A stretch of DNA of 64,000 nt from Raillietiella orientalis. Lineage: Eukaryota. The position numbers and the translations under genes were made by a program. The stretch lies in the NCBI GenBank assembly GCA_036172245.1, contig JAYWIR010000074.1:124001-188000 (forward strand), written 5' to 3'. Shown here piece by piece: positions 2,586-62,430 of the stretch. The stretch's first letter is position 1. Every line of letters starts with the position of its first letter. The notes under the pieces are model-generated. The model saw only the letters and a program-made list of their open reading frames with translations, was not told where the DNA came from and searched no databases.

Positions 2586-3233
2586 TCAACAATGTCCCTC
2601 TCCTACCCACACGCGAATGCAGTTTTCATCGAGGAAAACGCGATCGAGCGATCTTTCCATTCCAGGTTCGCTGACCACCAAGTTGGCGGGGTGCACGCAC
2701 GCGCACATCTCGATGGGCAGCGCGCGCGCCCTCGGGCGGCTCCAATCGTCGGATAGCAGGAGGACGTTGAAGTCCCCAGCGACAAGGTGCGCCACTTGGA
2801 AATCGGAGATGTTGAGCCAGTGGCTCTGCACCTCACCAAAAAAAGCTTCTCTTTCCTCGAGGTAGCGAGAGCCACTCGGTGCGTAGACGTTCGTAAAGAC
2901 GAGATCGATGGACTCGGACCACTTGATTAAAAGCTGGCGTATTTTTCCGTCGTAATCGAAACGAACACTACGCACCGCGTTCGCCATTTTTCCACTTTCG
3001 AGGAACGCGAAGCCGCATGTGTGTGCGCCGCCGCACCGCCAATGTACCGTTTTGCCTGCGCGCTCCTCGATTTCGGCTGCCTGCTCGTAAGAGATTACGT
3101 GAATCTCCTGCAGGAGCGCGAGGTCGAAGGGGCGCACGGCGTTGACTACTAATCCCCTCTTCTCGTCGTTCTGCAGTCCGTTCACGTTCCAACACGTTAC
3201 GGACAGACGACGAGAAGACGCGATTCCCCGCAT
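2586..3233 (-). pseudogene. B1 ORF2 APE-type endonuclease domain (frame broken before the RT)
   Basis: MRGIASSRRLSVTCWNVNG...LQEIH...NVYAP...GDFN...SLDR; ATG at 3233 overlaps an upstream TAA (TAATG). Confidence 0.85.
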
Positions 3234-3790
3234 TACTGCTAAGAAGGTGGCGGCTTTTTGCAAGCTTTATCCGGCGAGCAGACAGCGAGCAGCACGACTG
3301 GCTGGAGGGGACGGTCGCCACCGTCCTCTGTCGTGCTGCATGCATGTAATGCCTCCACGCCAAGCTTAACCCCGTCTGGTTTCGTGGAGACTTCGCGTTG
3401 CTTCGCGGCGAGCGTTGCCTGGCTGCCTACTTTGATCGGCGCGCACACGCTTTTGAACGAGTTGTCCTCGTCTCGGTGATCGGAACGGCATCCATTTCGG
3501 AGTCCGAGGGGTGCATGTTCGATCGGGTTTGGGTCTTCCGCGAATAAGTGATAGCTTCTGCTGGATTGACAGCTGCCCTGTTGTCTATATCCGTCACCAG
3601 AGCAACGCTTTTGGTGACGGCTGCTTTCCCGGCGCGCGTTTTCAGCGTGTTTGCGAGCAGTTGCACGAGGGACCTTTGCTGAAGTCTTGTTTACTTCATT
3701 AAGGTTCCTCAGTTTGCTTGGCGCCGTAAATGGAGATTGTGCTCCATTGCCATCTTTGAAGCCATGCGCTTCTTTGGACGGGAGCGGTTC

Positions 3791-5152: not shown

Positions 5153-5230
5153 CGTCGTCAAAATGTACGACGCCAAGATGAAGCGGATGAAAGCACGGAG
5201 ACGAGAGCGAAGAAGTACACGTTTGCACTC

Positions 5231-10050: not shown

Positions 10051-10077
10051 AATAAACGCCCCGGGCGTACCCGGGTG
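10051..10077 (+). terminator. Representative element 3' end: AATAAA plus GC stem-loop, no poly(A); 13 instances in the window
   Basis: Also at 22, 1489, 14233, 23140, 35461, 40371, 51133, 56761, 62378 (+) and 14611-14635, 25273-25306, 40952-40977 (-); function inferred. Confidence 0.7.
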
Positions 10078-10096
10078 ATAACGCCGAATCCCTTGG

Positions 10097-10113
10097 CGAG
10101 TGGACGTGTTTTT
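10097..10113 (+). promoter_or_regulatory. Conserved 5'-terminal motif containing (G/A)GACGTGT, candidate internal promoter element
   Basis: At the 5' tip of A (10097, 17516), B (11808; variant at 5231 minus), E (37378 minus) and C (23907; 63777 minus), while the rest of the UTRs diverge; absent from D. Confidence 0.5.
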
Positions 10114-17498: not shown

Positions 17499-20400
17499 CC
17501 CCAAATCCCTCTCCTCGAGAGCGGACGTGTTTTTCCGACGCTCCGCGAACGAGCAGAGGAAAGCGGTTTTTGTTTGGTTCAGTGTGAGGTTTATCACATC
17601 GTTGGTGTTCGATGGCATCGCTGCCAGAGGACAAAACGATGGAGGTAGGCGTGAGGGAGGCTAGCCCCCTCCACGACCTACAGAATCAGGGGCATCCGTC
17701 CCGGAATCGCCCTCGTCGCCCAAGACGAGGAGCTGGAGCGCCATGGTCGCCGCGCCGAGCGCGGAAACCTTGGCTGAGCAAACGGCCTACAGGGCCTCCG
17801 GATATAAACCATCCCTGGTTTATAAGGTAGGAAACCTGTTCGACGGTCGCACCGCGCGTGCCTTCAGCAAGGCACTACAGGAATTCCCCGTGTGTGAGGA
17901 GGATTTTGACGGCCTCGACGTACTCAGCGGGGGGCAACGCGTGGAGGTCTTCTGCAAAGACGTAGCCCTAGCGCAGCGCCTCATCAACACCCCGCTGAAT
18001 GTGGCTGGCCGAAAGATCCTACCCGTTAGCATGGACCGCTCCGTAGTGATCCATCTCACGGAGATCACGAACCGCATGACGCGCTCTGCGGTGAACGCGG
18101 AGTTGAAAAAATACGGAGATGTGCACGCGCTGTGGCGAAAGCCAACCATTTTTGACGGCTATAACAGCCTCTTTGGTGGCCAGGCAACAGCGCGTGTCAC
18201 TGTGAACGAGGGTGCTGAATTACCCCACAAACTGGAGGTCGGGTAGGAGCCCGTCGACCTCTGGTACGTAAGGAAACCCCGCTATTGTGGCTACTGCGAT
18301 GCAGTAGGGCATGTGCGCAGGCGGTGCCCGAATATCGAGTGCCACTTGTGCGGGGAAAAGGGACACGTCCGTCGTGTGTGCCCTAAACGCCCCATTCCGG
18401 TGCCACCTGCTGCCAAAAAGGCACAGGTGAAAACGATGAATAAGGTCGAAAGACCTCATCGCGCGAATATCCGGCCCCAGAAGCCTTCCCCTCCTCCATC
18501 AACCCAGGCGGCAGCGGAAAAAACCGCGAAACACGCGGGCGAGGAAGAAGGATGGACGCTGGTAAAGGCCAGAAAAGAACCCAAAAAGGGTTCACAAGAG
18601 AAGGCGGAGAAAAAGTCGGTCGCGAAGGCGAAAAAACCTGGTCCGCGATCTAAAACTCTCCGCGAGTGCTCGGTAGCACTGGAGCGCATCAACGTTCCCG
18701 AGGCTGCCACCCGGGGCGACGAGCCTCCCCTCGTCGTTTCCGCCGCGCCCGAGGTTCGCGACGGCGAACCCTCTGTTTGCACAGAGGGTGAGACGCGCGA
18801 CGCGCTCGCCGCCGGCGAGGACGCCGCCTTCGCGAAGGCGGCGGAGGAGCTCGCGGCCACGCAGGCTGAGCGTGAGAACCCCTCGCGCAAGGCCGTGCGA
18901 AGGCCGGCTCCGCCGAAGCAGGCCCCCGCAGGTGATTGCGATCTGGGGGCCGGAAGTGCATCCTCCTCCTCGGAGGCATCCCCCCGGAAGACGGGACGCA
19001 AGTCCCAAAAGCCGAGGAAGCGCCTCCCCTCCACGAGCGAGGAGGAGAAGCTGGAAGTCGCCGGCAGCGTGGGAATCCCGGAGGGGGAGCTCCCACGCGC
19101 GGAAGCCGTCGAGCAGGACACCCCCATGGAGGAGGGTGAGCAGGGGGGCGAAATCCCCCCTGCCGTCGCGGACCCTGAGGAGCCCACTTCTATGGAGGAG
19201 GGCCAGAAGGTAGGCGCGACCCCACCTGAGGGTGAACCGCCCGACGCGCCGTCACCGATGGAAAAGGGTGGCCAGGTGATAGAGTAACCTGTCCCTCCTC
19301 CTTCACCTAGCGTCCCGCCCCAACAGTTGGCGGACGCCGCACAACCGATTTCCAGGAATAACACCTGGGCTCGCCTGTCGCCGTCGAATCCGCGTGGCCA
19401 GTTGGAACGTCAACGGGCTGCGCGACGACGGCCACAGACGAGATACGGCCGACACCCTGCGTGACTTTCACCTGGCCCTGCTGCAGGAGATGCACGTGAT
19501 CACCTCGACAGACGTCCAGGAGATCGGAGCGATCGCGGGGGGTCGACTGTATTGGCGATGCGGCGCCCGCAACACCTGCGGGGTCGCGTTCTTCGTCAAG
19601 CCGGCCATCGACGCTGCCGTGAAGGGCGTACGCTTTGATAACGACGGTCGGGTCGGTCAGCTGATTCTCAGCTGGTCCGACTCGATCGAATTGATCGTCA
19701 CGAACGTGTACGCCCCGAGCGGAAAAGGGGGATACAGCGACCGTACCAGGCTACTGGAAACCCTGAAGCGCGATTGGCTGGCCGACACGAATGTGCGGAA
19801 GGCACAAGTGATAGCTGGAGACTTCAATCTCCGTCTGCTATCAGGTGAGCACGAAGCACAAGAACGCACGGCCAACGAGTTGTGCGCTGCCATGCGCACG
19901 CGCAACTTGTTGGCAGACGCGGAGGGAATGGACCGCAGCATCGACCACTTCTTCGTGGATGTCGACCTGTGCTCACGGGTCGGCAAACGGGGAAAAGTTG
20001 CGTCGACGCTGTCGGACCATTCCAGGATCATCGCCGAGGTTTGCCCGCGCGACAAAGGACCCCCGTCCAGGGCGCGGCGGCTGCCTGGGGACTGGACGCT
20101 GCTCTCAAGGTGCGAAAGAACACCTTCGCGAATTCCTGAGAGGCGTCACCCTCCGCAGTCTCCAAGACTAGTACCTCTTCAAGGCCACGGTCCGCGAGTT
20201 CTGGGAGGAGTTTCCCCTGCACCGCCTGCCCCCCGGATTCGGGGAGGGAGCTCGGAACCATCGGGCTTATCTACAGGCCCGCCGGTGCGAGAGGACCCCG
20301 AATGTCCGTCGCCTAGCGGAATATCGAGCCGGGGCCGAACGCCAAGCCTGGCAATCCGGGTCGGCCAGCTTGCTGGACGACCAGGGCCGGGAGCGATCCG

Positions 20401-23180: not shown

Positions 23181-25403
23181 GCAGGTAGGCGATGCAGGGG
23201 GAACTGGTCGCAGAACTCCTGGACCGACCGCTTGAAGCGGTCCCAGTCGTGAAGTGTCTGCATCCTGAAGCTCCGAATAAACGCGCGGAGGTGCTCCTCC
23301 GCGTCGGGAAACTTCAGCCAGTCCCCGGGCAGACGCCACACTGACGAGAAGGGGCCCTTGTCGCGCGGACGCACTTCGAACATGATCCGACCATGGTCCG
23401 ACAGCTCGGATGGTACCTTGCCGCGCCTGCCCACCCGAGAGCATAGGTGCTGATCAAGGTACACGTGATCGATGCTGCTTTCCATGGCCGTGTTCCCGGC
23501 CAACAAGTTGCGCGTGTTCATTTCTGCGCACAACTCGTTGACGCGCTCGTTCAGTGTATCCGGCGCACCTGAAAGCAGGCGCAGGTTGAAATCACCTGCG
23601 ATCAGGTGCGCTTTGCGAGCTCCTGCATCGGTCAGGCAATCGCGTCTCAGGGAAAGGTAGAATTCCCTTCTTGCCTTCGCCCTCAACGCGTTGTTTCCGC
23701 TAGGAGCGTATAGGTTGGTGACGACCAGGTCGATAGAGTCGGACCAGCTGAGAGTCAGCTGACCGACGCGACCTGCGTCATCGAACCGAACGTCCTTTAT
23801 TGCGGTCTCGATGGCTGGCCGAAGCAGGAAGGCGACACCGCTTGATTTCACGGTGCCGCAACGCCACAACTGCCGCCCACCCGAGATCCGTTCGATCTCT
23901 TGCGCTCGTACAGTGCAGACGTGTTTCCGCGTCTATCCGCGCCAACGATCGTGCAACTTTGTGCCTGCGTTTTTGCTCGCACTTGTGTGTTTCTGTGCAA
24001 TCTGCCAAGTAGCATAGTGCAACATGGCGAGTACACAGGATAGTGTGGAGGAGCAAGCCACTGAATGCACTTCAGCTGCACTTGAAGTGGCCGCATCCTC
24101 CGTAATGGTTTCCTCGCCCCCGGTGAGGAGTTACGCCGTCGTTACCTCCCAAAGACCAGGACCCTGCGATGCGGAGTTCCAGGCATATGTGTCATCAGGA
24201 TACATGCCTGCACTCCGTTATAAGGTCAGTGGGCCACTTAACGGGAGAATGGGTCGTGAGCTCAATGATGAGCTCGTCCGGATAGGCGTTTGCGAGGAGG
24301 AACTCCTTGCCATGATGCCTGCCGGCAGGATGGAATATACGAAGATTCGGTGCAAGAACGCAGCTCTTGTGCAGCGCCTTCTCCGTACGCCGTTGACCAT
24401 CAATGGAAAGGAAGTCCTACCTACCGCGATGGACAACTCTTTTGTCGTTCAATTGTGCGACATCGAACCGGAAATCTCCGACCGCGATGTCGTAAGTGTG
24501 CTGGCGATGTTCGCCGCCGTGCACGCTCTGTGGAGGAGGCCAAATCCTCTAAAGGATTTCCCCTCTGTCCACATTGGACAAGCCTCCGCAAGGATCACCG
24601 TCGCGAACAGGCGTGTTGTGCCTGAGCAGCTGCAGGTGAACGGCACGGTCGTTCACCTGTGGTTCATAGGCCAGACTCGCGCGTGCGAGCAGTGCGGCAA
24701 GGATGGGCACCGAATTAAAAAGTGCCCCTCTCCAAGATGCCGCTATTGCAAAGATTCCGGGCACGAAATCAAGAAGTGCCCGGTACTTGCAAGAAAAAGA
24801 GCCGCAGCGGAAATTCGTCGGGTTCAAGAGACCAGTGCACGAAAAGCCGCAGCGGCAAATAAAAAACGTCGTCCGCAAACACTCGAAAAAAACCACGAGC
24901 GATCCGCGGATAAAAAGAAAGCATCCCCGCCCGCAACGCCCCGAAAGGGGAAAGTCACGGCGGGGAAGCCAATTAAAAAGGGGCGCGAGGGTTTGACGCC
25001 TGCCGTGCCTTCCCTCTCTGCCTAACTCGCAGGCACCTTTCTGAGCCTGGAACCAGGAAATCTCCGTAACACCCTGGAGGGAAAGGTAGGAAAACAGGAA
25101 GATCGCAACAGTGCGAAGACTTCTTGCCCCGTTCCGTTGTCCCTTCCGAGTTCCGGACAGCCCCACTGCAGCGCAGGCCCCACTGCAAAGGCTACAAAAG
25201 CCGTAAAAAGCAGCGTCGCGACGAGCAAAAGCACGCTGCATGCAGTAGCCCCATCGCCGACTCGGCAGGTTTCCCCAAGTCCCACAAGGGGTGGGGTAAG
25301 TTTATTTTTCTATAAAAATACAAAATTTACATTCGCACGCTCACTCACTCAATACAATTATTTTGCACTTGGGGGTCCTTGGGTTGCACTAGAGTTCTGC
25401 TAT

Positions 25404-28400
25404 TCAGGGGGGAATTCCAGCAGGATGGTCCCGGGCGTCGTCCTGGATCCTCTTCAGGATGAATCGGTACGTCCAGGCGTGGATCTTCCCGCAGTTCCTG
25501 ATGCCGATTTCCCTCTTCAAGAGCCCTTGTAGGATCTCCATTGGTGGTGCGGCTCTCCTGGCTTTCCTCATTTTCCACCACCGCACAAGTATGGCGGTGA
25601 TGAAGAGGGCTATGGTCGTCCTCTCCATGGGATTGTAACAGGGAACATTACCATCCCCATGAAACATCCCGGCGAGGATCTCCATAACGGACTTGTTGGT
25701 AAGTCCTATGATCCTTTTCAGGATCAGCCAGTCATGCAGCAGTGTGGGACACGTCAAGACGTGAAGTCTCGTGTCGTCGTCTCCACATGCTGCGCAGTCT
25801 CGGTCTTCCCGTCTTCCTGTAAAGTGCTGCAATCGGGACCCACTCTGGATTCCTCCGTGATAAAACATCAGGAGGTCATCCTGGGTGCCCGGCGGAAGGT
25901 CACTCCTCCAGAGAGTCGTGCCGATCGCTAACAGGTTGAACCGTTCACTCCCGTAGCGTTCGGTGGCTTCCTGGAGGGCACTGGTGTCACGGTCGTTTTC
26001 TTGGATAAACCTTCGGAGGTTTGTTCTGGTTACCCTCGACCATGCGAAGTCGTTGTGGCTGAACCACACTTCGCGGGTCCTGTGGGTAAACCTTCCTAAC
26101 ATCATCTCTGTATACCGAAGTATACGTGTTTGATGTAGGTAGCCTCCTCGCCTCCACTCCTGGATTTGCAGTAGGGTAACTCTGGACCGCTGGTAGATCC
26201 AGCTTCTCGTGTCCGGCGGGACAGAAAGCAACCAAGGGATCACCAGGATGGACTCGTCCTGCCAGAGTTCCCTGCTTCGCGGCACGATCTTGATTTGGTG
26301 CTTCCGCACCAGCCGTTGCTTCCTCCTCCAGGTCGGGTCGATTCTTATCCATTCCCCTACTTTGCCTAGCAGCGCAGTCATCAGGCCTTTCGAGTTGTTA
26401 AGCAACAACGCGTAGGCCCGGTGCGCCGCATACGGCCAGTCATCGCAGTAAGTGGCCATGTCCAGGATGTGTCGCGTATCCATGATTTCCATGGAATGTG
26501 CAAGCGACTTCATCCCGGAACCGCCTTCTTCCCTGGGACGACACAGGGGTTTCAGTCGGACTCTTGGGCGATAGTGGCCCCACAGTGTTTTTCTCTGCAG
26601 CTTGTCGAACTCCCTCGTGGTGTCCTTGTTCATCCTCGCGAGGGCCGCCCCGAAGAGCACTTTCGGAAGGAGTACTCCGTTCCATATGTTTGCCTTTCGC
26701 TTCATCCCAAGGTCCGTTCGGGTGTACTTGGCTGCTTCCTTGGCCGTTTTCCCCAGGATTTCCTTCCACAGCAGCTTCGACGCAGAGCCGTCGCCGATGT
26801 AGACTCCCAGGTACTTGGCCGTGTCCACCGTACGGAATCCACTACCCGTTAGAGTGGAGAGATCCAGTATTCCGACGGAAAAAAGCTGGCTCTTCTGAGA
26901 ATTGATTTTTAAGCCCAAGCCCTGTTCCATCAGGTCCACCACATCCAGAAACGCACGCTGATTATTCTCTCCCTTGATGAAGAAGAGTAGATCATCGGCG
27001 TATGCCAGATGGGTAAGACGCTGGCTATCGATGGTAATCCCGCTTAGTCGTCCGCTCTTCTCGATAAAGGACGACAACGCCTCCATATAGATGACGAACA
27101 GCATCGGACTTAGCGAGTCGCCCTGTCGGACTCCTCGTTCCATCCTGATTGCTGCCGTCTCCTGGCCGTTGATCTTGATCCGGCAGTACTGGTTCTGGAA
27201 TACCGCCCTCACGAAGTTGCTGAAGTGTTCCGGAAGCCCTAGCTTCTCCAGAACCTTCAGCAGCATCCCGTGGTCGATGGAGTCGAAGGCCTTCTCCATG
27301 TCAGTGAACACCAGCACCAGGTTCTCGCCGACGTATCGACTGAGTCCAACAGTGGCCTGGGCACACTTGACATTGTCCGACATGTGTCGTCCTGGGACTG
27401 CACATGTCTGGACCGGAGATATCAGCCTCGACATGATTTTGCCTAAGCGGTTGGACCAGATCTTCGCCAACCACTTGGCATCGGAGTTTAGAATCGAGAT
27501 TGGCCTCCATTGGGCGATCTGGGTAGAGTCGCCTCCTTTCGGCAGCAATCTTATCCGACTCTCGTAGAAGGACTGAGGTAGTCTGCCTTCTTCCCGGATG
27601 CAGAGGGTCAACTGGTGGAACAAGCGCAGGTAGGCGTGCAGGTACCGCTGATAGTGCGTGATGGGTACACTGTCAGGGCCCGCTGCCACGTCCTTGCGAA
27701 GTTGCCCAAACGCAGTCTTCACCTCTTCTTCGGAGAACTCCTCCTCCAGTCTGTTCCGCTGGAGGTCGTCGGTCCTTTTCTCGAGATAGCTCAAGAAGGC
27801 CTGTTGACTAGAGCGACACAGCTGTTGTCGCCTGAAGTGTTTCGTGTAATGCCTGTGAAAGGCATCCACGATGTCCTCAGACGAGTGTCGCTTTTGGCCG
27901 TCGTACTGGATGCAGAAGATATCTGTTGCCAGATTTCTCTTCTCCAGCACGCCGACTTCCCCTTTTATGTTATTGAGGACGTACCGACTCTCGTACTGAT
28001 CGAAGTACTTTGAAAGGGAGCGATCTTGGATATTCAGATCCCGGTACGCCTCTTGCCTCAAGCGCCTATCCCCGAACTGCATGTTCGCAAACAGGTGTAT
28101 CCTGTGTTTCAGGCTGTCCCAGTCGGCGACTCTTCGGATTGTTGTTGCCCTCAGAATCGTCTCCAGGACAGCCTGATGTCCGGGATGGGTTTCGAACCAG
28201 GCGGGCATGCTGATGAGCGCCGCCCTGATGCCGTGCCTCCGCCGAGGATTCTCCGTTCTTAGGGAAAACCGCACCAGGGGGTGATCGGACACCGTGGTCA
28301 TAATGTCTCGAAAACCCTGGATGCGATTCCCAAGTTCGGTGCTGTGCAGGACGTGATCGATCGGCTTGTGACTTGCAGTTCGCCACACCAGTCCGAACTC

Positions 28401-28922
28401 GTCGGATAACCGCCGATACGCCGTCTTTTTTCTGGCGTCTTCGGAGTGAGTGATCTCATCCAATATGTTGAGATCGCCAGCAACAATCACGACGTCCTTG
28501 GAAGCAACCTTTTCACGGAGTGCTGCATGCAGCGCCTCCGCACAACGATGTTTTAGCCTGTGCGGTCCGTACACGTTCACCAGGATGAGGTGAACAGTAG
28601 CGGACCAGGTGAGTCGCACGCCGATGATTCGTCCGGGTTGGGGACAGAACACTTCCAGAATAGTGGGGGCCAAGTTGTTCTTGATTAGGACCGCCACTCC
28701 CTGCGTGTTCCGTTCTCCCTCGCTGACGAAAATCTGCCCGTTGAATCGCCGTTCCATTTGCTGACTAATGTCGAGACCCATCTTGTGGGTCTCCTGCAGG
28801 CACACTATGTCTTGTTGTGCGATGGTCCGCACAATCCTTCTTCTTTTTCCCTGGTCGACCATACCGTTTACATTCCAGGAGGCGATGTTCAGCCTCCTGG
28901 CGGTCGATAGGGAAGAGGCCAT
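25404..28922 (-). CDS. Intact ORF2 of D0: APE endonuclease, reverse transcriptase and C-terminal CCHC (1172 aa from first ATG)
   Basis: WNVNG, LQETH, NVYGP, GDLN, IDH, SDH; AGPDS, WRPISIL, DMEKAFD, GVRQGDSLSP, YADD, KYLG; CAACGDDDTRLHVLTC. Confidence 0.93.
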   Translation of the reverse strand: MASSLSTARRLNIASWNVNGMVDQGKRRRIVRTIAQQDIVCLQETHKMGLDISQQMERRFNGQIFVSEGERNTQGVAVLIKNNLAPTILEVFCPQPGRIIGVRLTWSATVHLILVNVYGPHRLKHRCAEALHAALREKVASKDVVIVAGDLNILDEITHSEDARKKTAYRRLSDEFGLVWRTASHKPIDHVLHSTELGNRIQGFRDIMTTVSDHPLVRFSLRTENPRRRHGIRAALISMPAWFETHPGHQAVLETILRATTIRRVADWDSLKHRIHLFANMQFGDRRLRQEAYRDLNIQDRSLSKYFDQYESRYVLNNIKGEVGVLEKRNLATDIFCIQYDGQKRHSSEDIVDAFHRHYTKHFRRQQLCRSSQQAFLSYLEKRTDDLQRNRLEEEFSEEEVKTAFGQLRKDVAAGPDSVPITHYQRYLHAYLRLFHQLTLCIREEGRLPQSFYESRIRLLPKGGDSTQIAQWRPISILNSDAKWLAKIWSNRLGKIMSRLISPVQTCAVPGRHMSDNVKCAQATVGLSRYVGENLVLVFTDMEKAFDSIDHGMLLKVLEKLGLPEHFSNFVRAVFQNQYCRIKINGQETAAIRMERGVRQGDSLSPMLFVIYMEALSSFIEKSGRLSGITIDSQRLTHLAYADDLLFFIKGENNQRAFLDVVDLMEQGLGLKINSQKSQLFSVGILDLSTLTGSGFRTVDTAKYLGVYIGDGSASKLLWKEILGKTAKEAAKYTRTDLGMKRKANIWNGVLLPKVLFGAALARMNKDTTREFDKLQRKTLWGHYRPRVRLKPLCRPREEGGSGMKSLAHSMEIMDTRHILDMATYCDDWPYAAHRAYALLLNNSKGLMTALLGKVGEWIRIDPTWRRKQRLVRKHQIKIVPRSRELWQDESILVIPWLLSVPPDTRSWIYQRSRVTLLQIQEWRRGGYLHQTRILRYTEMMLGRFTHRTREVWFSHNDFAWSRVTRTNLRRFIQENDRDTSALQEATERYGSERFNLLAIGTTLWRSDLPPGTQDDLLMFYHGGIQSGSRLQHFTGRREDRDCAACGDDDTRLHVLTCPTLLHDWLILKRIIGLTNKSVMEILAGMFHGDGNVPCYNPMERTTIALFITAILVRWWKMRKARRAAPPMEILQGLLKREIGIRNCGKIHAWTYRFILKRIQDDARDHPAGIPP

Positions 28923-28935
28923 AAAAGGGGAAGAC

Positions 28936-30721
28936 CTATTTCTTGGCCTTCCTGAGCTTCTTCTGTCTGAGAGAGCGTGCTCTTCCCGACAATGAAGAAG
29001 CAGCGGGCTTCTCGCTGCCGGCGTCACTCTCTGTTCCGGTGAGGTCGGTTACTTCCGCCTCCTCCGTCGAGTGTTCGGCCCGCTCGATCGGTTTTCGAGA
29101 TAGCGTCTCTATCTGGACCTTGGCGCAGAAGTTCGCCTTTACGTCGAGAAGCTGTTCCTCTAGCTTTTCGCGCTCGGTGACCTCCACAACCTGGTTGACC
29201 TTCTCCTGTGCATTGCAGATCTTTTGCAAGATTTTCTCTTGCTGGAAACCGCTCTGCACCTCTAGGACTACATTAGCCAGTGATGCCAACTCCTCCGTAG
29301 ATTGCAGGGCCTCCTGTGACACCGGAGTGGCTTCGGCTTTTTCTTCTTCCGCGCCTTCCTGCGCTACCTCCATCTTCTCGCCTTCTTGCTCTTCACCTTC
29401 CAGGATAAGAGGGGTTACTTGCTCCTTGACGAGCATCCTCCTCTTTCCTTTCTTCCCTACCTGTATGAAGCCGTCTTCCGATACCGGGACGGCTTCTTTC
29501 ACCTTTTTCGGGCTTTCTGCCTTCTGAGGCTGTTCTGCCTCCTTGGTGTTTCTCTCTCACGGGAGAGAGACCTCGAATCCTTCTGCAGTTTGCAAACTCC
29601 GGACAGCTCCATTTGGCATGTCCGTGTTTCTTGCAGAAGGAGCACACCTCCGGCTGCGGGCAGTTTCGGACTTGATGTCCTACTTTGCCGCAGCGGAAAC
29701 AACGACACGTTGGGCAAGCGCCGGCCCTGTGGCCGAACTGCTTGCACCCGGTGCAGAATATCGGCTGTTGCCGGTAACGCACGTTCACTCCCTGGGATTG
29801 CTCGTCATGAACGGCTTATCCAGGGATCACAGCTCCCTCTTTCAACTTCATTTTGGCGATCATGTCGCCAGAATATATTTTTCCAGAGAAGTTCTGGAAT
29901 TCAAGGTCCAGAACTTCCCCATACTGCTCCAAAAAGTTCCACACCGTTAGTTGCAGTGTGAGGATGGAGATGCCGTTCAGAAAGAAGGTTGTGTATGGCA
30001 TCTCGCCAACACCACAAACCATCCTCCCTTGTATATTAATCCCCTTCTGGATCAATCGCTCTCTAATCTCTTCACAGTCTGTGAAGACTGTGAACCCGTT
30101 GTTTGCTGGTATGAAAGCTTGTATGCGATCAAAATTCATGTCCGTTTTATCGAGGCACAGATACACCTCCCTGATATTATTGAACTTGATCAGCCCAGTC
30201 TTGAAAATGATGGGCTTCACATTCGGCCCTAACTCCACGATCGGTCGATCCACCTTTTGGACTTTACCGCATAGCGGCTTCCCGAATTTTCTTGGTGGGT
30301 GGACACTCGCTTGTCCAGCCGCCACCGACACATAGGAGAAGGGCTGCGCCGCCGCAGCCGAACAAGATGGCGTCTCGCCCTGAACCGCGTGGACGCCCGC
30401 GGGTCCTGCCTGGGACGCCGCCGCTCCGAGCGCAACCCTCGACGTCGCCACCTTTGCCGCCGCGGGCGGCACCCTCGGCATCGCCGCCGCAGGCGCGACC
30501 TTCCCCGCCGCGGGCACGATCCTCGGCGTCGCCGCCGCGGGCACGACCTCCGCCGTCGTCGCCGCGGGCACGACCCTTGGCATCGCCGCCGCCGGCGCAG
30601 CACAGCCCGCCGCGGGCGCGATCCTCGGCATGCCTGCCACCGCCTCGCCGTTGCCGCACGTTACCTCCATGGCTTCCATGGGGGACGACGGTCTCTCCAC
30701 TCCTCTTCTAGGTGCCTGCAT
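28936..30721 (-). pseudogene. D0 ORF1 with three CCHC knuckles; stop at 29816 and a frameshift near 29500
   Basis: Matches the intact D3 ORF1; CTGCKQFGHRAGAC, CFRCGKVGHQVRNC, CSFCKKHGHAKWSC. Confidence 0.85.
30450..30635 (-). repeat. Degenerate GC-rich tandem repeat in D ORF1 encoding PR(I/V)(A/V)PAA units; also at about 45805-45990, 51443-51630 and 57073-57225
   Basis: Repeated gccgaggatcg(t/c)gcccgcggcg-like units; D3 lacks one 27-bp unit relative to D0-D2. Confidence 0.75.
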
Positions 30722-31562
30722 CCTGGCAGCTGGTCCTGCTGCACGAAACCACTGCAGGTCTTCCGCCGCGATCTCCTCGGCGCTTCTTTTCTAGTTTCGT
30801 TTGGAAAACTTCCCCTCTCCGGGCACACACGAGCACAATGAACTGATTAACTTGTCAAGCGCACAATACTTCGAGCCGCGGGGCAAGTTCACCGACTCGG
30901 CAGGAGAGGAGCGATCTCCCGACTGTCAAGAAGGTGACTCCGTTGCCGCCTTTTAAAGGCGTAGCGAAAGCAACGCTTCCAGAGAACGCAGCGAAAATCC
31001 CGGAGGTTTCCGCAACTAATGTCGCGGAAGCCTCCGAAAATCGCGAAGGCGAATGGAAGGTTGTGGAGAGGAGGAAAGAAAAATCTCCAAAGAAAGCTCC
31101 GCAACCTCCATCCCTCAGCTCTTCCAAAGGAAAAAGCAGTCGCGCGAATACGAAAACACGCGCGGCTTGTGACTCTTCCAAGGAAAAAGCCAACGCCTTC
31201 AACGCGTGCAAGTCCGCTTCTGTGACCGCCGAGAAGACCATTCCGGTGCAATCGGACGGATGCAAGCGCACATCGATCGTGCGAGCTTCAGACTTCGCAA
31301 AGGAGTCCGATAACGCAGCTGAACGACGCGTAACTCGCGCGGGAGCGAGCGCCCGCAGGGCTGAAGCCCTGAGGCGTGACACACTCGCCGCGGAACGGCG
31401 AGTGCTCACCCCGGAACCCACAGGTTCTGCACCCGGGGAGGAGCACCCGATTACGTGCAGCACAGTTGAGGCCGGTGGCGACCGCGCCCGCCAGCCCGTC
31501 GTGCTGCTTACTGCCCGCTCGCCGGGTGAGGCGAGCACCACGGCCTCGCTTTCCCAGCCGTG

Positions 31563-34500
31563 ATGAGGGCAATCGCGTCTTCTCGTCGTGTTGCCGTAAC
31601 GTCTTGGAACGTCAACGGGCTCCAACACGAGAAGAAGAGGCAACTAGTGGCTCACGCTCTGCGCGCCTGCGACTTGACGCTCCTGCAGGAGATTCACAGC
31701 ATCTCCGGAGAGCAGGCTGCCGAAATCGAACGGCGCGCGGGCGGAACGCTACTTTATAGGTGCGGCGTTGCACGTACGTGTGGTGTCGCTTTCCTCGTAC
31801 GAGGAACTTTGGCGGGAGCGGTGCGCAGCGTTCGTTTCGACACGGAAGGCCGAGTGGGACAGCTTGTACTCAAGTGGTCCGTCTCGCTCGTCCTTGTCGT
31901 AACAAACGTGTACGCGCCGAGCGGTGCTGGACGATGGGCCGAAAGGATTGAGTTCTTCGGTACCCTTCAAGGCCAGTGGCTCACTCGATCTCACCCTACT
32001 GTGGCCCATGTCATTGCGGGGGACTTTAACGTCCACCTGCTTTCCGAGAATAGATCCCACAAAAGGGAAAAGTTGCTAGCGGAAGAGATGTGCGCGTCCG
32101 TGCACGCGTGCAGCTTGTTCGCTAGCGACCCTGTTATGGCAGCAACGCCGGATTACGTATACATTGATGAACACTTGCTCTGTGGAGTGGGTAGGAGAGG
32201 TCCCGTGCCGTCCGTGCTTTCAGACCACAACAGGCTCGAGTTCGAGTTGCTCCTGCCAGGCAAGGGGCCTCCAAACTGTTTTTGGAGGATGCCGGCAGAC
32301 TGGCTAAGCCAACCGGAGGCGGCTAAGCATCTTCGCCAGTACCTCCTCGATTTTGCCATAAGTGAGCTCGAGTACTGGGACGATCTGAGAAGATCGGTCC
32401 GCAAGTTCTGCTGCCGGTTTCCCTTGCAACAGCTTCCGTGCGGCTACGGAGAGGGCGTAGCCACCAGCAGAGATTTTCTGCAGGCCCGCTCCTTTTCCAG
32501 GCGCGCGGACGTTGGTCGATTATCCGAGTACAAGGCCAAGGCCGAGCGCCAGGTCTGGCAGTCAGGGGCGACAGTTCTGCTCGACGACCAGGACCGGGAA
32601 TGCTCGGCTCCAGCCGGCGTGCGACGGAGAGTCAGGCGCTATTACTCTTCTCTGTATGCAGAGGCACCGACGGAACGCAGCCTGTCCCGGCTGCTTCTGC
32701 CGATTGATGCACTTGTTGTAGACGAGGATGAACGCGCGCGTCTTGATGAGCCATTCACGGCAGAGGAAATTTCCTCGGCCATCTCGGGGCTCAAGAGACG
32801 AAAAGCGCCAAGCGAAGATGGGCTCCACGCGGAATTCTTTCAGTGTTTTGCGGCGGAGCTCATCCCTCTGGTGCTCCAGCTCTCGTCGCTGATGCGAGAC
32901 TTGCGCGATGTCCCCGCATCGTTTCGCTCAGCGAAGGAGCGTCTACTGCCGAAAGGCGGAGATTTGCGCCAACTGAACAACTGGCGTCCGATCACATTAG
33001 TGAATTCGAACGTCAAGTTGTTCTCGAAACTTTGGGTGGCGCGGATGGGTAGGATCGCGGAATCCTTGGTAAGTCCGGAGCAGACGTACGCTGTTCCTGG
33101 GCGGTCCATAGACGCGAATCTCTTGTTCATCCGCACATGGCTGCAATTGCAGCATCGTGTGGCGGTGGGTCGTCGTGCGGAAGCTACGCCTTCGATCTCT
33201 CACCGACGGAGGCGCGGGACGCAAAGGGAGACACCGGGAGCCTTGGCGGTTGCAGTCGATCTGCACAAAGCTTTCGATTGCGTGAACCAAAAGCTTCTTC
33301 TTGAGCTTTTGGAACATCTGGGTCTTCCGGCATCCCTGTTGGCGTACTTGCGCTCCTGCTGGCGCCACGCGATTACATCCATTGTTTTCAGTGGCTGTCG
33401 CGTGTACGGCGTGCCGGTACGACGAGGAATTAGGCAGGGTGACAGCATAAGCCCGCTGCTCTTCAGCATCTATTTTGAATTGGTGCTGGAGGCTTACAGG
33501 CTGACGCTAGCCAACCTGCCGAGCTCCTGTCCAGGTACGCCGGCCGTTGCAGCCTATGCCGACGACCTGCTTCTCCTGTTGCCCATGTCCATTCCGACAG
33601 CGTCGCTTGAAGATTTCTTTGAGTTGATCCGTCGCGGTGCGGGCGTGAGCGTTAACAGGAGTAAGTGTATGGTTGTTCCGGTGGGTGCGACGTGGGAGGG
33701 GCAGTCCGACTGGATCGATCTGGGGATCCCCACGGGCAGGTACCTCAGGTACCTTGGCGTGCCGTTCGGCGACTTCTGCATCTCAGAAGCGTGGTCGGAC
33801 TGCCTTCGGAAGGCAGAGCGTGCACTTAGCCCGTTTTCAGGAGGCGAGTTCGTCTTGCCGGAACGGGCCTGCATCTGGAACACCTTCGTTGCCCCCCTCC
33901 TCCGCCCCCTGTTTTTTGTTTGTCTAACCCTCCAGGAAGTCAAAGTCTTGGCGCAGCGCCTTCTACGCAAAGCGTTGTGGGGCGCTGCAAGATCCCGTGT
34001 TAGACTTAAAGACTTGGTGGCGCCGCGTCAGGATGCAGGCTTGGGCATCCTCGACTTAAACAGCATCGAACTGCAGGTGCAGTTTCGCATGCTGCGGCTC
34101 TGTGCCAAGCTGTGGTGTACGCCGTGGTGCTTACCCGCACGCCTTATACTGAGGCGCTGCACGGGAAACGAGGGACTGCTTTCGTTGCTACCCCACTTTC
34201 GGCACACCAGAATAGGGTTTGGCTTCCCGCTGAGGCAGCTGTCCTCACTGCTGGAAGCCCAAAGCTGGATCTCCTGCCGCCCTATGAACATTAATGCATG
34301 GCGGCAGGAATCTTTTTCATCGTGGGCAGCTTCCGAAGAAACGCGCCCGGAAGATCTTCGACGCCTGCGACTTCTCCTCAGTCATCAAATGGACGAAGTC
34401 ATGCAGGACAAGAAGTTGTCGTATCGTCTGGCCGCCACACCACTCGCCGCAGCGCTGTCTGGCCTGAGGGCAAGCAACGACGGTTGCCTACCGGCGAAAT

Positions 34501-35135
34501 GGGAATTCTCCTGCAAAATAGCGGGAGTCAGTAAGCTCCTCGGCAGCTGGACGACAAAGGAGCTGGTGCAAGCCGCCACACCTCGGAATCGGGCGAAGGG
34601 ACTGCTTCGGTGGAGCGAACATTTAAGTGTGCCCCCCGGAGAGATAGTGGTTCCCCCCGTTTGTTTGGACAGCTCCGTGTTTCCCCTTAAGTGGAAGCAA
34701 GATGTGCTGCTCTTTTTACATTGTGCATTTCACTGTAATAAGCAGCGAAGCATCGTTTCCGGGGGAGCTGCTTTGCCAAACTGTTTAAGGTGCGGAGAGA
34801 TCGAGTCTTTTCCGCACCTTTTGTTGGACTGCGGTGACCTCCGGGAACTGTGGCGAAGGCTCACTTCGGCCATCATGCCACAAGGAGGCACTGCCATTGA
34901 TGTGCTGCGGCGCTTCTTCAGCAGAAATGGACTTTCGGTTGGCGCGATTGTCGCAACCATGTGTTGCGTTCGCGCCATCGTGAGGGCCCGCTACGCCCTG
35001 GAGTTGTCGTCGCAGCGAAGGGAGGCTCACCTGCTTGCAGCTCAATCCATGGAGAAGGCTTCAAGGTGGTTTCATCTTCGTGACAAGGTGAATGAGGACA
35101 TCACCTGCATACATCGCCGGTTTACACATCTTTGA
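31563..35135 (+). CDS. Intact ORF2 of C1: APE endonuclease, reverse transcriptase and C-terminal CCHC (1190 aa from ATG)
   Basis: WNVNG, LQEIH, NVYAP, GDFN, SDH; WRPITL, VDLHKAFD, GIRQGDSISP, YADD, RYLG; CLRCGEIESFPHLLLDC; ATG overlaps the ORF1 stop (TGATG). Confidence 0.93.
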   Translation: MRAIASSRRVAVTSWNVNGLQHEKKRQLVAHALRACDLTLLQEIHSISGEQAAEIERRAGGTLLYRCGVARTCGVAFLVRGTLAGAVRSVRFDTEGRVGQLVLKWSVSLVLVVTNVYAPSGAGRWAERIEFFGTLQGQWLTRSHPTVAHVIAGDFNVHLLSENRSHKREKLLAEEMCASVHACSLFASDPVMAATPDYVYIDEHLLCGVGRRGPVPSVLSDHNRLEFELLLPGKGPPNCFWRMPADWLSQPEAAKHLRQYLLDFAISELEYWDDLRRSVRKFCCRFPLQQLPCGYGEGVATSRDFLQARSFSRRADVGRLSEYKAKAERQVWQSGATVLLDDQDRECSAPAGVRRRVRRYYSSLYAEAPTERSLSRLLLPIDALVVDEDERARLDEPFTAEEISSAISGLKRRKAPSEDGLHAEFFQCFAAELIPLVLQLSSLMRDLRDVPASFRSAKERLLPKGGDLRQLNNWRPITLVNSNVKLFSKLWVARMGRIAESLVSPEQTYAVPGRSIDANLLFIRTWLQLQHRVAVGRRAEATPSISHRRRRGTQRETPGALAVAVDLHKAFDCVNQKLLLELLEHLGLPASLLAYLRSCWRHAITSIVFSGCRVYGVPVRRGIRQGDSISPLLFSIYFELVLEAYRLTLANLPSSCPGTPAVAAYADDLLLLLPMSIPTASLEDFFELIRRGAGVSVNRSKCMVVPVGATWEGQSDWIDLGIPTGRYLRYLGVPFGDFCISEAWSDCLRKAERALSPFSGGEFVLPERACIWNTFVAPLLRPLFFVCLTLQEVKVLAQRLLRKALWGAARSRVRLKDLVAPRQDAGLGILDLNSIELQVQFRMLRLCAKLWCTPWCLPARLILRRCTGNEGLLSLLPHFRHTRIGFGFPLRQLSSLLEAQSWISCRPMNINAWRQESFSSWAASEETRPEDLRRLRLLLSHQMDEVMQDKKLSYRLAATPLAAALSGLRASNDGCLPAKWEFSCKIAGVSKLLGSWTTKELVQAATPRNRAKGLLRWSEHLSVPPGEIVVPPVCLDSSVFPLKWKQDVLLFLHCAFHCNKQRSIVSGGAALPNCLRCGEIESFPHLLLDCGDLRELWRRLTSAIMPQGGTAIDVLRRFFSRNGLSVGAIVATMCCVRAIVRARYALELSSQRREAHLLAAQSMEKASRWFHLRDKVNEDITCIHRRFTHL

Positions 35136-43200: not shown

Positions 43201-45547
43201 AGGGATTCCCTTTGCGACCCGCGCCTCCGTCGGTGAGAGATCGGAGGCGTTGCTTCCGCACGACCATTAACCGCCACACGATGCTGCAATTGCAGCCTTG
43301 TGCGGATGAACAAGAGATTCGCGTCCATGGACCGCCCAGGAACAGCGTACGTATGCTCCGGACTTACCAAGGATTTCGCGATCCCACCCATCCGCGCCAT
43401 TCAAAGTTTCGAGAACAACTTGACGTTCGAATTCACTAATGTGCTCGGACGCCAGTTGTTCAGTTGGCGCAAATCTCGGCCTTTTGGCAGTAGACGCACC
43501 TTCCCTGAGCGAAAGAAGGAGGATACATCGCCCGAGTCTTGCATCAGCGACGAGAGTTGGAGCATCAGGGGGATGAGCGCCGCCGCAAAACACTGAAAGA
43601 ATTCCGCGGGGAGCCCATCTTCGTCTGGCGCTTTTCGTCTCTTGAGCCCTGAGATGGCCGAGGAAATTTCCTCTGCCGTGAAGGGCTCATCAAGACGCGC
43701 GCGTTCCTCCTTGTCTACAACAGGAGCATCAATCGGCAGAAGCAGCCGGGAGAGGCTGCGTTCCGTCGGTGGCTCTCCATACAGAGAAGAGTAATAGCGC
43801 TCGACTATCCGTCGCACGTCGGCTGGAGCCGAGCATTCCCGGTCCTGGTAGTCGAGCAGAACTGTCGCCCCTGACTGTCAGACCTGGCGCTCGGCCTTAA
43901 CCTTGTACTCGGAAAACCGTCCAACTTCCACGCGCCTCAAAAAGGAGCGGGATAGCAGAAAATCTCTGCTGTTGGCTACGCCCTCTCCGTAGCCGCACGG
44001 AAGCTGTTGCAAGGGAAACCGGCAGCAGAACTCGCGGACCGATCTTCTCAGATCGTCCCAGTACTCGAGCTCACTTATGGCAAAATCGAGAAGGTACTGG
44101 CGAAGATGCTTAGCCCCCTCCGGTTGGCTTAGCCAGTCTGCCGGCATCCTCCAAAAACAGTTTATAGGCCCCTTGCCTGGCGGGAGCAGCTCGAACTCGA
44201 GCCTGTTGTGGTCTGAAAGCACGGACGGCACGGGACCTCTCCTACCCACTCCACAGAGCAAGTGTTCATCAAGGTATACGTAATCCGGCGTTGCTGCCAT
44301 AACAGGGTCGCTAGCGAACAAGCTGCACGCGTGCACGGACGCGCACATCTCTTCCGCTAGCAACTTTTCCCTTTTGTGGGATCTATTCTCGGAAAGCAGG
44401 TGGACGTTAAAGTCCCCCGCAATGAGATGGGCCACAGTAGGGTGAGATCGTGTGAGGCACTGGCTTTGAAGGGTAACGTATAACTCAATCCTTTCGGCCC
44501 ATCGTCCAGCACCGCTCGGCGCGTACACGTTGGTTACGACAAGGTCGATCGAGTCCAACCACTTGAGTACAAGCTGTCCCAATCGGCCTTCCGTGTCGAA
44601 ACGAACGCTGCGCACCGCTTCCGCCAAAGTTCCTCGCACCAGGAAAGCGACGCCGCACGTACGTGCAACGCCGCACCTATAAAGTAGCGTTCCGTCCGCG
44701 CGCCGTTCGATTTCGGCAGCCTGCTCTCCGGAGATGCTGTGAATCTCCTGCAGGAAAGTCAAGTCGAAGGCGCGCAGAGCGTCAGCCACTAGTCGCCTCT
44801 TCTCCCCGTGTTGGAGCCCGTTGACGTTCCAAGGCGTTACGGCAACACGACGAGAAGACGCGATTGCCCTCATCACGGCTGGGAAAGCGAGGCCGTGGTG
44901 CTCGCCTCACCCGGCGAGCGGCCAGTAGGCAGCACGACGGGCTGGAGGGCGCGGTCGCCACCGGCCTCAACTGTGCTGCACGTAATCGGGTGCTCCTCCC
45001 CGGGTGCAGAACCTGTGGGTTCCGGGGTGAGCACTCGCCGTTCCGCGGCGAGTGTGTCACGCCTCAGGGCTTCAGCCCTGCTAGCGCTCGCTCCCGCGCG
45101 AATAACGCGTCGTTCAGCTGCGTTATCGGACTCCTTTGCGGAGTCTGATGCTTGCACGATCGACGTGCGCTTGCATCCGTCCGATTGCACCAGAATGGTC
45201 TTCTCGGCGGTCACAGAAGCGGACTTGCACGCGTTGAAGGCGTTGGCTTTTTCCTTGGAAGAGTCACAAGCCGCGCATGTTTTCGTATTCGCGCGACTGC
45301 TTTTTCCTTTGGAAGAGCTCAGGGATGGAGGTTGCGGAGCTTTCTTTGGAGATTTTTCTTTCCTCCTCTCCACAACCTTCCATTCGCCTTCGCGATTTTC
45401 GGAGGCTTCCGCGACAGTAGTTGCGGAAACCTCCGGGATTTTCGCTGCGTTCTCTGGGGGCGTTGCTTTCGCTACGCCTTTAAAAGGCGGCAACGGAGTC
45501 ACCTTCTTGACAGTCGGGAGATTGCTCCTCTCCTGCCGAGTCGGTGA

Positions 45548-51169: not shown

Positions 51170-51185
51170 CCTGCCGAGTCGGCGA

Positions 51186-56797: not shown

Positions 56798-56813
56798 CCT
56801 GCCGAGTCGGCGA

Positions 56814-62414: not shown

Positions 62415-62430
62415 ACTGCCGAGTCGGCGA

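What the first reader, a model, noticed from the sequence alone, without database searches (positions are those of the whole stretch)
32019..32228. Endonucleases appear to lack the hairpin segment that sets target preference in other APE retrotransposons
From the GD(F/L)N Asp to the next conserved Asp there are 43 residues in C (…LFASDPVMAATPDY) and 39 in D (…LVWRTASHKPIDH). A, B and E are similarly short (LLADAEGMDRSIDH, LVVSEPGMERSLDR, LLAGNTAMESSIDH). Human L1 EN has 60 (D145 to D205), including the YTF...SKID beta-hairpin (betaB6-betaB5) implicated in target choice. No T(Y/F) hairpin motif is visible here, yet insertions look site-specific. Inference: specificity comes from another surface, another domain or RNA-DNA pairing.
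Basis: partly seen in the sequence, partly recalled or inferred. Interest (0 to 1): 0.78.

Follow-up and report, generated by a model that had tools for sequence, protein, structure and literature searches.

The report
Compact LINE endonuclease with stub hairpin
The nicking enzymes of five related jumping-gene (LINE) lineages in this repeat nest are about 17 to 21 residues shorter than usual in one segment, because a structural connector is gone and the DNA-probing hairpin is probably cut to a short loop, which is a modest but real variant of a known enzyme.

Summary
In all 8 endonuclease (EN) copies with both landmarks (5 lineages) the GD(F/L)N Asp lies 39-43 residues before the next catalytic Asp. 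Human L1 and R1Bm EN have 60. Database relatives measured here have 54-76 (median 64 in 82), and every other EN segment is of normal length.

AlphaFold models of C and D (pLDDT 88.9 and 89.3) match L1-EN best (Z 24.8-25.0). They keep 12 strands, including a 3-4 residue strand directly after helix alphaB2.

On my reading, most of the deficit is the helix-to-strand connector (the DxWRxxxP motif of relatives) plus a shorter preceding loop. The betaB6-betaB5 hairpin survives as an irregular loop of 9 (C) or 7 (D) residues, about 5-6 or 3-4 between the anchor positions, against 9 in L1, 7 in R1Bm and 11 in Tx1L/TRAS1. Sequence aligners place the gap differently, so residue equivalences are uncertain.

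The catalytic residues are intact. Element 3' tails do not match their flanks, which argues weakly against pairing through the tail.

This scan reached a similar verdict on other DNA of the same genome (e1-7591589). I rate it a new variant of a known kind, of moderate interest.

The parts
31560..35135 (+). Element C ORF2 (1191 aa, open): EN + RT + C-terminal Cys/His region
   Evidence: ORF; PF03372 at residues 15-223 (E 2.1e-11) and PF00078 at 464-734 (E 2.3e-19)
31566..32303 (+). C endonuclease domain as modelled (246 aa)
   Evidence: AlphaFold2 pLDDT 88.9, pTM 0.89.: best match is L1-EN 1vyb_A, Z 24.8, rmsd 2.6, 212 residues aligned
32022..32156 (+). C short segment, from GDFN Asp (D153) to the catalytic Asp (D196) plus Tyr; 43 residues Asp to Asp
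   Evidence: HMMER alignment to L1-EN jumps from L1 I178 to D205
32115..32123 (+). Predicted 3-residue strand LFA (184-186) directly after helix alphaB2; read as the remnant of betaB6
   Evidence: DSSP (E184-186); 12 strands in the model
32124..32150 (+). 9-residue loop SDPVMAATP (187-195) with one helical turn (190-193); takes the place of the betaB6-betaB5 hairpin
   Evidence: H190-193; block pLDDT 76-84
25404..29027 (-). Element D ORF2 (1207 aa, open)
   Evidence: PF03372 (E 8.9e-18) and PF00078 (E 1e-34)
28206..28916 (-). D endonuclease domain as modelled (237 aa)
   Evidence: pLDDT 89.3.: best of 48,161 chains is L1-EN variant 2v0r_A, Z 25.0, 207 residues aligned; TRAS1 EN Z 20.6; R1Bm EN Z 19.0
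28353..28475 (-). D short segment, 39 residues Asp to Asp. It ends with strand LVWR (176-179), loop TASHKPI (180-186), then D187
19364..20095 (+). Lineage A endonuclease domain; short segment 19820-19948 (41 residues)
23465..23593 (-). Lineage E short segment (41 residues); the EN is truncated at its N-terminus by the C insertion
2640..2774 (-). Lineage B short segment (43 residues); the copy has a stop codon soon after
44133..44870 (-). Second C copy EN (91% aa identity to the first), part of an inverted segmental duplication
53151..53861 (+). Second D copy EN; a third D short segment lies at 59203-59325

Best explanation
These are working L1-type APE endonucleases of a LINE clade in which one region has been pared down.

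The connector between helix alphaB2 and strand betaB6 (the DxWRxxxP element of L1-like and APE1/ExoIII-like enzymes) is lost, so betaB6 follows the helix directly. [quoted passage not shown] That loop has 9 residues from strand to Asp in A/B/C/E-type enzymes and 7 in D.

Catalysis should proceed as in L1-EN, by a single-strand nick that primes reverse transcription (inferred). The stub loop carries a Met conserved in 4 of 5 lineages. It can at most touch the groove edge. The long sequence-specific targets of these elements are therefore probably read mainly by other EN surface loops and/or by non-EN parts of ORF2p (inferred, not shown).
For: - The short segment is present in 8 of 8 copies and 5 lineages. 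Two of them sit in open 1191- and 1207-aa ORF2s.
- The catalytic set is invariant across the 5 aligned ENs: N15, E42, Y116, D153, N155, D196, S219-D220-H221.
- Only the D145-D205 segment deviates from relatives.
- Both models have high confidence and have L1-EN as best structural match. Both show helix, then 1-2 residues, then a 3-4 residue strand, then a 7-9 residue loop, then the Asp strand, with 12 strands in total.
- Relatives carry LxDxWRxxNPxxxxYTWxxxxxxxxSRxDY in this place.
- Anchors and loop lengths are taken from PMC1950540 (L1 9, Tx1L and TRAS1 11, R1Bm 7). R1Bm T175 to D186 is 11 (PMC1919474).
- Target-site duplications of 9 and 15 bp at junctions show EN-type integration.
Against: - No coordinates were available, so the strand pairing and the residue-by-residue superposition on L1-EN were not seen. 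The equivalences rest on DSSP strings and counting.
- The three sequence aligners disagree. HMMER stops at L1 I178 and resumes at D205. MAFFT deletes connector plus betaB6 for A and C, but for D it aligns VWR with the connector's VWR. hhalign removes 'SLTRYTW' and spreads further gaps upstream, which leaves a nearly full-length loop.
- Model confidence is lower in exactly this region (block pLDDT 76-84 in C, 67-78 in D).
- The MSA has only 5 family members plus 54 relatives at 20-31% identity.
- The 12-strand count of L1-EN is recalled, not taken from a call.
- No biochemical data exist.
Confidence: 0.5

Rival explanations
1. The hairpin is kept at near-normal length and only the connector and the upstream loop are deleted. 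Target reading then works as in R1Bm or L1, through this hairpin.
For: - hhalign places C's FASDPVMAATPD on the relatives' hairpin loop 'ARAKS--KSRID'.
- Counted from the middle strand residue (F185), C has 11 residues to the Asp. That equals R1Bm's T175 to D186, against 13 in L1.
Against: - The DSSP of both models shows no ribbon, only a helical turn (C) or coil (D) between a 3-4 residue strand and the Asp strand.
- D has only 7 residues from strand end to Asp.
- The conserved Thr anchor is S/T in only 3 of 5 lineages at the inferred position.
- hhalign's placement splits helix alphaB2, which the model predicts as one continuous 16-residue helix.
Confidence: 0.27
2. The hairpin, including betaB6, is lost altogether, and the residues that remain are what is left of the connector. 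This would be a natural analogue of the L3G loop-deletion mutant.
For: - MAFFT aligns D's L-VWR-TAS with the relatives' L-x-D-VWR connector.
- HMMER aligns C through L1 I178 and then jumps to D205.
- No Thr-aromatic motif is present.
Against: - Both models predict a beta strand, not the connector's conformation, directly after the helix, and they keep 12 strands.
- In L1 the L3G variant loses nearly all nicking and retrotransposition (PMC1950540, Table 1). These elements, by contrast, have open ORFs and copies up to 97.5% identical.
Confidence: 0.15
3. The EN is decayed or dispensable, and integration uses another nuclease or pre-existing nicks.
For: Nothing direct. Loss of a region that is otherwise nearly universal could suggest relaxed constraint.
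Against: - All catalytic residues are invariant across lineages that are only 24-46% identical.
- The ORF2s of C and D are open.
- Junctions carry 9- and 15-bp target-site duplications at fixed words.
Confidence: 0.03

Closest known systems
Human LINE-1 endonuclease (L1-EN; PDB 1VYB, 7N8S)
   Same: Best sequence match in the PDB (E 3.7e-6 to 3.6e-8) and best structural match (Z 24.8-25.0). Same catalytic residues. Same spacing in four of the five landmark segments.
   Different: The D145-D205 segment has 39-43 residues instead of 60. There is no DxWRxxxP-type connector, no Y-T-F motif, and no predicted two-stranded hairpin. L1 targets a loose TTTT/AA word, whereas these elements sit at long fixed words.
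R1Bm endonuclease (PDB 2EI9), a site-specific R1-clade LINE
   Same: An APE-type LINE EN of about the same overall size: chain residues 9-222 align to D model residues 7-221. It has the shortest natural hairpin loop among the ENs compared in PMC1950540 (7 residues), and its specificity is ascribed partly to other surface residues (Y98) (PMC1919474).
   Different: R1Bm still has 60 residues from D126 to D186 and keeps T175-F176 and a hairpin at 176-183. Its compactness lies elsewhere in the domain. The structural match is weaker (Z 19.0).
Engineered L1-EN loop variants LR1 and L3G (Repanas et al. 2007, PMC1950540)
   Same: Their hairpin loops are cut to 7 or 3 residues, which brackets the 3-6 residues inferred here.
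   Different: In the L1 scaffold these variants are nearly dead (2% and 0% retrotransposition). The natural enzymes here belong to elements that look recently active.
Plant RTE-clade EN (PMC6007223)
   Same: A natural LINE EN whose hairpin loop is shorter than usual, which the authors link to altered cleavage preference.
   Different: It is only two residues shorter, belongs to a different clade, and no connector loss is described in the passages read.
Tx1L and other Tx1-group site-specific L1-like LINEs
   Same: L1-like ORF2 with a sequence-specific target. Earlier notes of this scan name them as the nearest behavioural analogue of this LINE guild.
   Different: Tx1L-EN has an 11-residue hairpin loop (PMC1950540). 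Clade membership of the present family was not tested by phylogeny.

Membership tests
APE-type (Exo_endo_phos, PF03372) endonuclease of non-LTR retrotransposons | Pfam PF03372 match above the gathering score | tested here: met
   44.4 bits (C) and 65.3 bits (D) against a cut-off of 24.5
APE-type (Exo_endo_phos, PF03372) endonuclease of non-LTR retrotransposons | Catalytic residues equivalent to L1 N14, E43, Y115, D145, N147, D205, S228-D229-H230 | tested here: met
   N15, E42, Y116, D153, N155, D196, S219, D220 and H221 are invariant in 5 ENs. Alignment to L1-EN
APE-type (Exo_endo_phos, PF03372) endonuclease of non-LTR retrotransposons | Conserved Thr (L1 T192, R1Bm T175) followed by an aromatic residue at the base of the hairpin | tested here: not met
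   no T-(F/Y/W) in any of the 8 segments. At the position after the predicted strand the lineages have S, S, T, D and G
[quoted passage not shown] | Protruding two-stranded betaB6-betaB5 hairpin with a 7-11 residue loop between the anchors | tested here: inconclusive
   a 3-4 residue strand, then a 7-9 residue irregular loop. About 5-6 (C) or 3-4 (D) residues lie between the anchor positions by my count. No coordinates were available to see protrusion, and hhalign gives a longer loop
L1-like / APE1-like subgroup | D-x-W/F/Y-R-x-x-x-P connector between alphaB2 and betaB6 | tested here: not met
   D, W and R are invariant or nearly so in 54 relatives and absent in A, B, C and E. D keeps only V-W-R, which is predicted as a strand
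L1-like / APE1-like subgroup | Overall fold closest to L1-EN | tested here: met
   Z 24.8, rmsd 2.6, 212 residues aligned.: Z 25.0, against 21.1 for the next unrelated chain
L1/Tx1-clade LINE | ORF2 with EN, RT and a C-terminal Cys/His (zf-RVT-like) region; ORF1 with CCHC knuckles | tested here: inconclusive
   EN and RT are met. PF13966 was not hit in the window's ORF2 at E<=0.01, although many relatives carry it. Cys/His motifs can be seen in the translations. No phylogeny was made
Site-specific LINE | Independent insertions of one lineage at the same target word | tested here: inconclusive
   D: 4 copies are flanked by CTGCCGAGTCGG(C/T)GA, but they lie in a tandem array and an inverted duplication. 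C: one independent insertion only. Earlier notes on other windows claim recurrence; I did not check them

The most novel reading that the evidence does not exclude
This LINE guild has evolved natural 'minimal-hairpin' endonucleases that would be nearly dead in the L1 scaffold, yet its elements still integrate at long, lineage-specific words. If so, target choice has moved off the canonical minor-groove hairpin, to other EN loops or to a non-EN part of ORF2p. The guild would then be a natural system in which nicking chemistry and target reading can be separated and re-engineered.
Probability: 0.2. Interest if true: 0.7.

Novelty: new variant of a known kind. Interest (0 to 1): 0.42.

Why it matters
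The betaB6-betaB5 hairpin is the element most often put forward as the handle for re-targeting LINE endonucleases (PMC1950540, PMC1919474, PMC2868851 listing). The R1Bm paper calls it common to all LINE ENs with solved structures.

A clade of apparently active, apparently site-specific LINEs lacks the connector and keeps at most a stub of this hairpin. That would show the L1-type scaffold tolerates much more trimming than the engineered variants suggested. It would also point experimenters to other determinants of target choice.

The present evidence is computational, and the residue equivalences are uncertain. For now it is a lead for structural and biochemical work rather than a result.

Tried and rejected
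- Whole-genome search: no genome is held for this window.
- Metagenome scan with the EN profile: 71 loci, none above 34% identity, and most matches cover only residues up to about 156-189. No relative with the short segment was found, and these loci were not analysed further.
- Word-indexed protein search with C ORF2: 36 hits at 31% identity or less. None has the short segment among the 18 measurable.
- Foldseek and VIA-align give ranges, not residue pairs, and model coordinates are not exposed.
- TRAS1 and Tx1L Asp-to-Asp distances could not be obtained. TRAS1 was not among the printed alignments, and Tx1L is in the PDB only as the LTx chimera.
- Pairing between the RNA 3' tail and the target: four junction types were read. 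The tails TGATAA, TGATAA, TGAGAA and GAAAC sit next to the flanks CGCCGAAT, ATTTCAAT, ATCTCCCG and CTGCCGAG. There is no tail-flank similarity beyond a possible single base, and two lineages with the same tail have different flanks. Read-through transcripts that carry the flank cannot be excluded.
- 3'-terminal stem-loops: only 1 of 4 folds is clearly better than shuffles (z -2.1, -1.45, -0.6, +0.8).
- Literature (listings, plus passages of PMC1950540, PMC8565326, PMC6007223 and PMC1919474): no description of a LINE EN with this deletion was found. One search returned nothing useful. Figures and supplements, where the published EN alignments sit, were not seen.

Full report
WHAT IS THERE. The window is eukaryotic DNA made almost wholly of nested L1-like LINEs. 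No genome is held for it, and GC content is 53-63%.

Element C has an open ORF2 of 1191 aa (31560-35135, +). Element D has one of 1207 aa (25404-29027, -). Both carry Pfam Exo_endo_phos and RVT_1 above the gathering scores.

The finding's coordinates (32019-32228) run from the Gly of GDFN to the His of SDH in C's endonuclease (EN).

THE OBSERVATION. A six-frame scan finds eight EN copies that hold both landmarks. The distance from the GD(F/L)N Asp to the next catalytic Asp is 43 (C, two copies), 43 (B), 41 (A), 41 (E) and 39 (D, three copies).

Human L1-EN has 60 (D145 to D205). R1Bm-EN also has 60 (D126 to D186; residue list in PMC1919474, passages read).

A profile of the five ENs was run against 1.84 billion representatives and gave 5710 hits, of which only the best 150 are listed.
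- 106 of these 150 had all motifs, and 104 of the 106 give 55-76, with a mode of 63.
- The two outliers are 25 and 100. The 25 is a wrong Asp picked by the regex, since its Asp-to-SDH spacing is 43 instead of 24. The 100 was not checked.
- Of 36 full-length ORF2 relatives, 18 were measurable and give 54-71.
- Requiring six landmarks, 82 of 186 stored proteins give a median of 64 and a minimum of 54.

The four other inter-landmark segments of C and D are ordinary: 27/74/37/24 and 27/74/32/24, against medians of 29/72/31/24.

So the shortness is real, is confined to this one segment, is shared by five lineages that are only 24-46% identical in the EN, and is not seen in any relative I could measure.

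WHICH RESIDUES ARE MISSING. Repanas et al. (PMC1950540, passages read) define the hairpin loop as the residues between the anchors T192 and S202. It has 9 residues in L1, 11 in Tx1L and TRAS1, and 7 in R1Bm. Miller et al. (PMC8565326, passages) show P197 and H198 of this loop inside the minor groove.

Relatives of the present family carry, after helix alphaB2, the pattern L-x-D-x-W-R-x-x-N-P-x-x-x-x-Y-T-W-(loop)-S-R-x-D-Y. That is a connector, then strand betaB6, then the loop, then betaB5.

AlphaFold2 models were made with a 59-row alignment.
- C: pLDDT 88.9.
- D: pLDDT 89.3.
- Both match L1-EN best: C has Z 24.8, rmsd 2.6 and 212 residues aligned to 1vyb_A. D has Z 25.0 to 2v0r_A among 48,161 chains, TRAS1-EN Z 20.6 and R1Bm-EN Z 19.0.

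DSSP on the models gives the following.
- C: helix 166-181, strand 184-186 (LFA), helical turn 190-193 (VMAA), strand 196-201 starting at the catalytic Asp.
- D: helix 166-174, strand 176-179 (LVWR), coil 180-186 (TASHKPI), strand 187-192.

Each model has 12 strands. That is the number I recall for the two six-stranded sheets of L1-EN (recalled, not from a call). I therefore read the short strand as betaB6.

Counting then gives these figures from the end of alphaB2 to the Asp: 15 residues in C and 13 in D, against 28 in L1 (L177 to D205).
- About 9-10 of the missing residues are the connector (L1 178-188).
- About 3-6 come from the hairpin loop.
- A further 4-6 are missing upstream, in the betaB4-alphaB2 loop and helix.
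- If the last three residues before the Asp stand for L1 202-204, then 5-6 loop residues remain in C and 3-4 in D.

HOW FIRM THIS IS. It is not very firm at the residue level.
- Coordinates are not exposed, so I could not see which strand LFA / LVWR pairs with, or how far the loop protrudes.
- HMMER aligns C up to L1 I178 and resumes at D205.
- MAFFT removes connector plus betaB6 for A and C, but for D it aligns V-W-R with the connector's V-W-R.
- hhalign removes 'SLTRYTW' and puts further gaps upstream, which would leave a nearly full-length loop.
- Model confidence dips in this region (blocks of 76-84 in C, 67-78 in D).

All methods agree on one point. There is no room for both a connector and a normal hairpin.

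The conserved Thr-aromatic motif is absent from all eight segments. At the position after the strand the lineages have S (C), S (B), T (D), D (A) and G (E).

A Met five residues before the Asp is shared by A, B, C and E (EGMDRS, PGMERS, TAMESS, PVMAAT). It sits in the predicted helical turn.

FUNCTION. The catalytic set is invariant, and two ORF2s are open. Junctions carry target-site duplications.
- A 9-bp ATTTCAATC duplication lies at an insertion into the G-D-F-N codons of another LINE (11800-11808 and 14263-14271).
- A 15-bp CTGCCGAGTCGG(C/T)GA word flanks every D copy.

These are therefore working nicking enzymes of the L1 type (inferred from sequence).

The window contains a 10.8-kb inverted duplication (25254-36039 against 51185-40402, 94% identity) and a three-unit D tandem array. 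C therefore has a single independent insertion here, and D's four flanks are not clearly independent. Earlier notes on other windows of this genome report recurrent sites. I treat them as leads.

Tails TGATAA, TGATAA, TGAGAA and GAAAC abut the flanks CGCCGAAT, ATTTCAAT, ATCTCCCG and CTGCCGAG, and two lineages with the same tail have different flanks. Read-through transcripts that carry the flank remain possible. 'Another EN surface' and 'another domain' remain open. Pfam finds no extra domain in ORF2 at E<=0.01.

COMPARISON AND NOVELTY. The nearest known enzyme is human L1-EN. The nearest precedents for short hairpins are:
- R1Bm-EN, with 7 loop residues and specificity partly from Y98 (PMC1919474);
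- plant RTE ENs, two residues shorter than other LINEs (PMC6007223);
- the engineered LR1 and L3G variants, which lose nearly all activity in the L1 scaffold (2% and 0% retrotransposition).

None of these lacks the connector or has an Asp-to-Asp distance near 40. Two full-text searches and the passages read gave no description of such an EN. Published alignments in figures and supplements were not visible to me.

This scan looked at the same idea before, on another piece of the same genome (e1-7591589). It concluded 'connector missing, hairpin kept, modest variant'. My models agree that the connector accounts for most of the loss, but they add that the hairpin itself is also cut down.

VERDICT. 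I class this as a new variant of a known kind, with interest 0.42.

Noticed in passing
45532-62430 (+); single inverted copy at 25254-30904 (-): Three D elements lie head to tail with a period of about 5.64 kb. Each unit is separated from the next by one copy of the 15-bp word CTGCCGAGTCGG(C/T)GA, which also flanks the array and the inverted single copy. The units are 88-97.5% identical to one another. This fits repeated insertion into the same site, or unequal exchange.
   Followed up: partly
25254-36039 versus 51185-40402: A 10.8-kb inverted segmental duplication (94% identity) carries D plus C. A further match (23697-30904 versus 63987-56798) has 89% identity. The second copies of C and D in this window are therefore not independent insertions.
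   Followed up: partly
11800-11808 and 14263-14271; duplicate junction near 5232 (-): A LINE is inserted exactly in the GGA-GAT-TTC-AAT (G-D-F-N) codons of another LINE's endonuclease, with a 9-bp target-site duplication ATTTCAATC. The copy near 5232 belongs to an inverted duplication (3573-6140 versus 13468-10889, 89% identity).
   Followed up: partly
10051-10081, 14233-14262, 35461-35490 (+): Three different lineages end with the same 3' terminus, AATAAACGC-(GC-rich palindrome)-GGGTGA(T/G)AA, and have no poly(A). D ends with ...CCCCACCCC..GGGG..GGGGAAAC. The predicted stem-loops are clearly better than shuffles in only 1 of 4.
   Followed up: partly
10082-10097 (+): A 16-bp spacer, CGCCGAATCCCTTGGC, lies between the 3' end of one element and the 5' start (GAGTGGACGTGTTT...) of the next. 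This is a tail-to-head arrangement like the D array.
   Followed up: no
23890-23912 and 35491-35504: C (with D nested in its ORF1) is inserted antisense into the EN-coding region of an E-like LINE, at the codons for ...AQEIE.... The two flanks share only 10 of 14 bases of the presumed target-site duplication, so either the duplication has decayed or the flanks come from different host copies (compared by eye).
   Followed up: partly
EN loops at 32124-32150 (C), 19916-19942 (A), 2646-2672 (B), 23471-23497 (E): A Met five residues before the catalytic Asp is conserved in 4 of 5 lineages and lies in the predicted helical turn of the stub loop. From recall, APE1 uses a Met of the equivalent loop as a minor-groove wedge. 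Not tested.
   Followed up: no
whole window, C ORF2 numbering: tblastn fragments of ORF2 break repeatedly at about the same residues (about 52-56, 155-157, 267-270). This fits the 'LINEs inserting into LINEs at fixed sites' picture noted elsewhere in this genome. Independent events were not separated from duplications.
   Followed up: no
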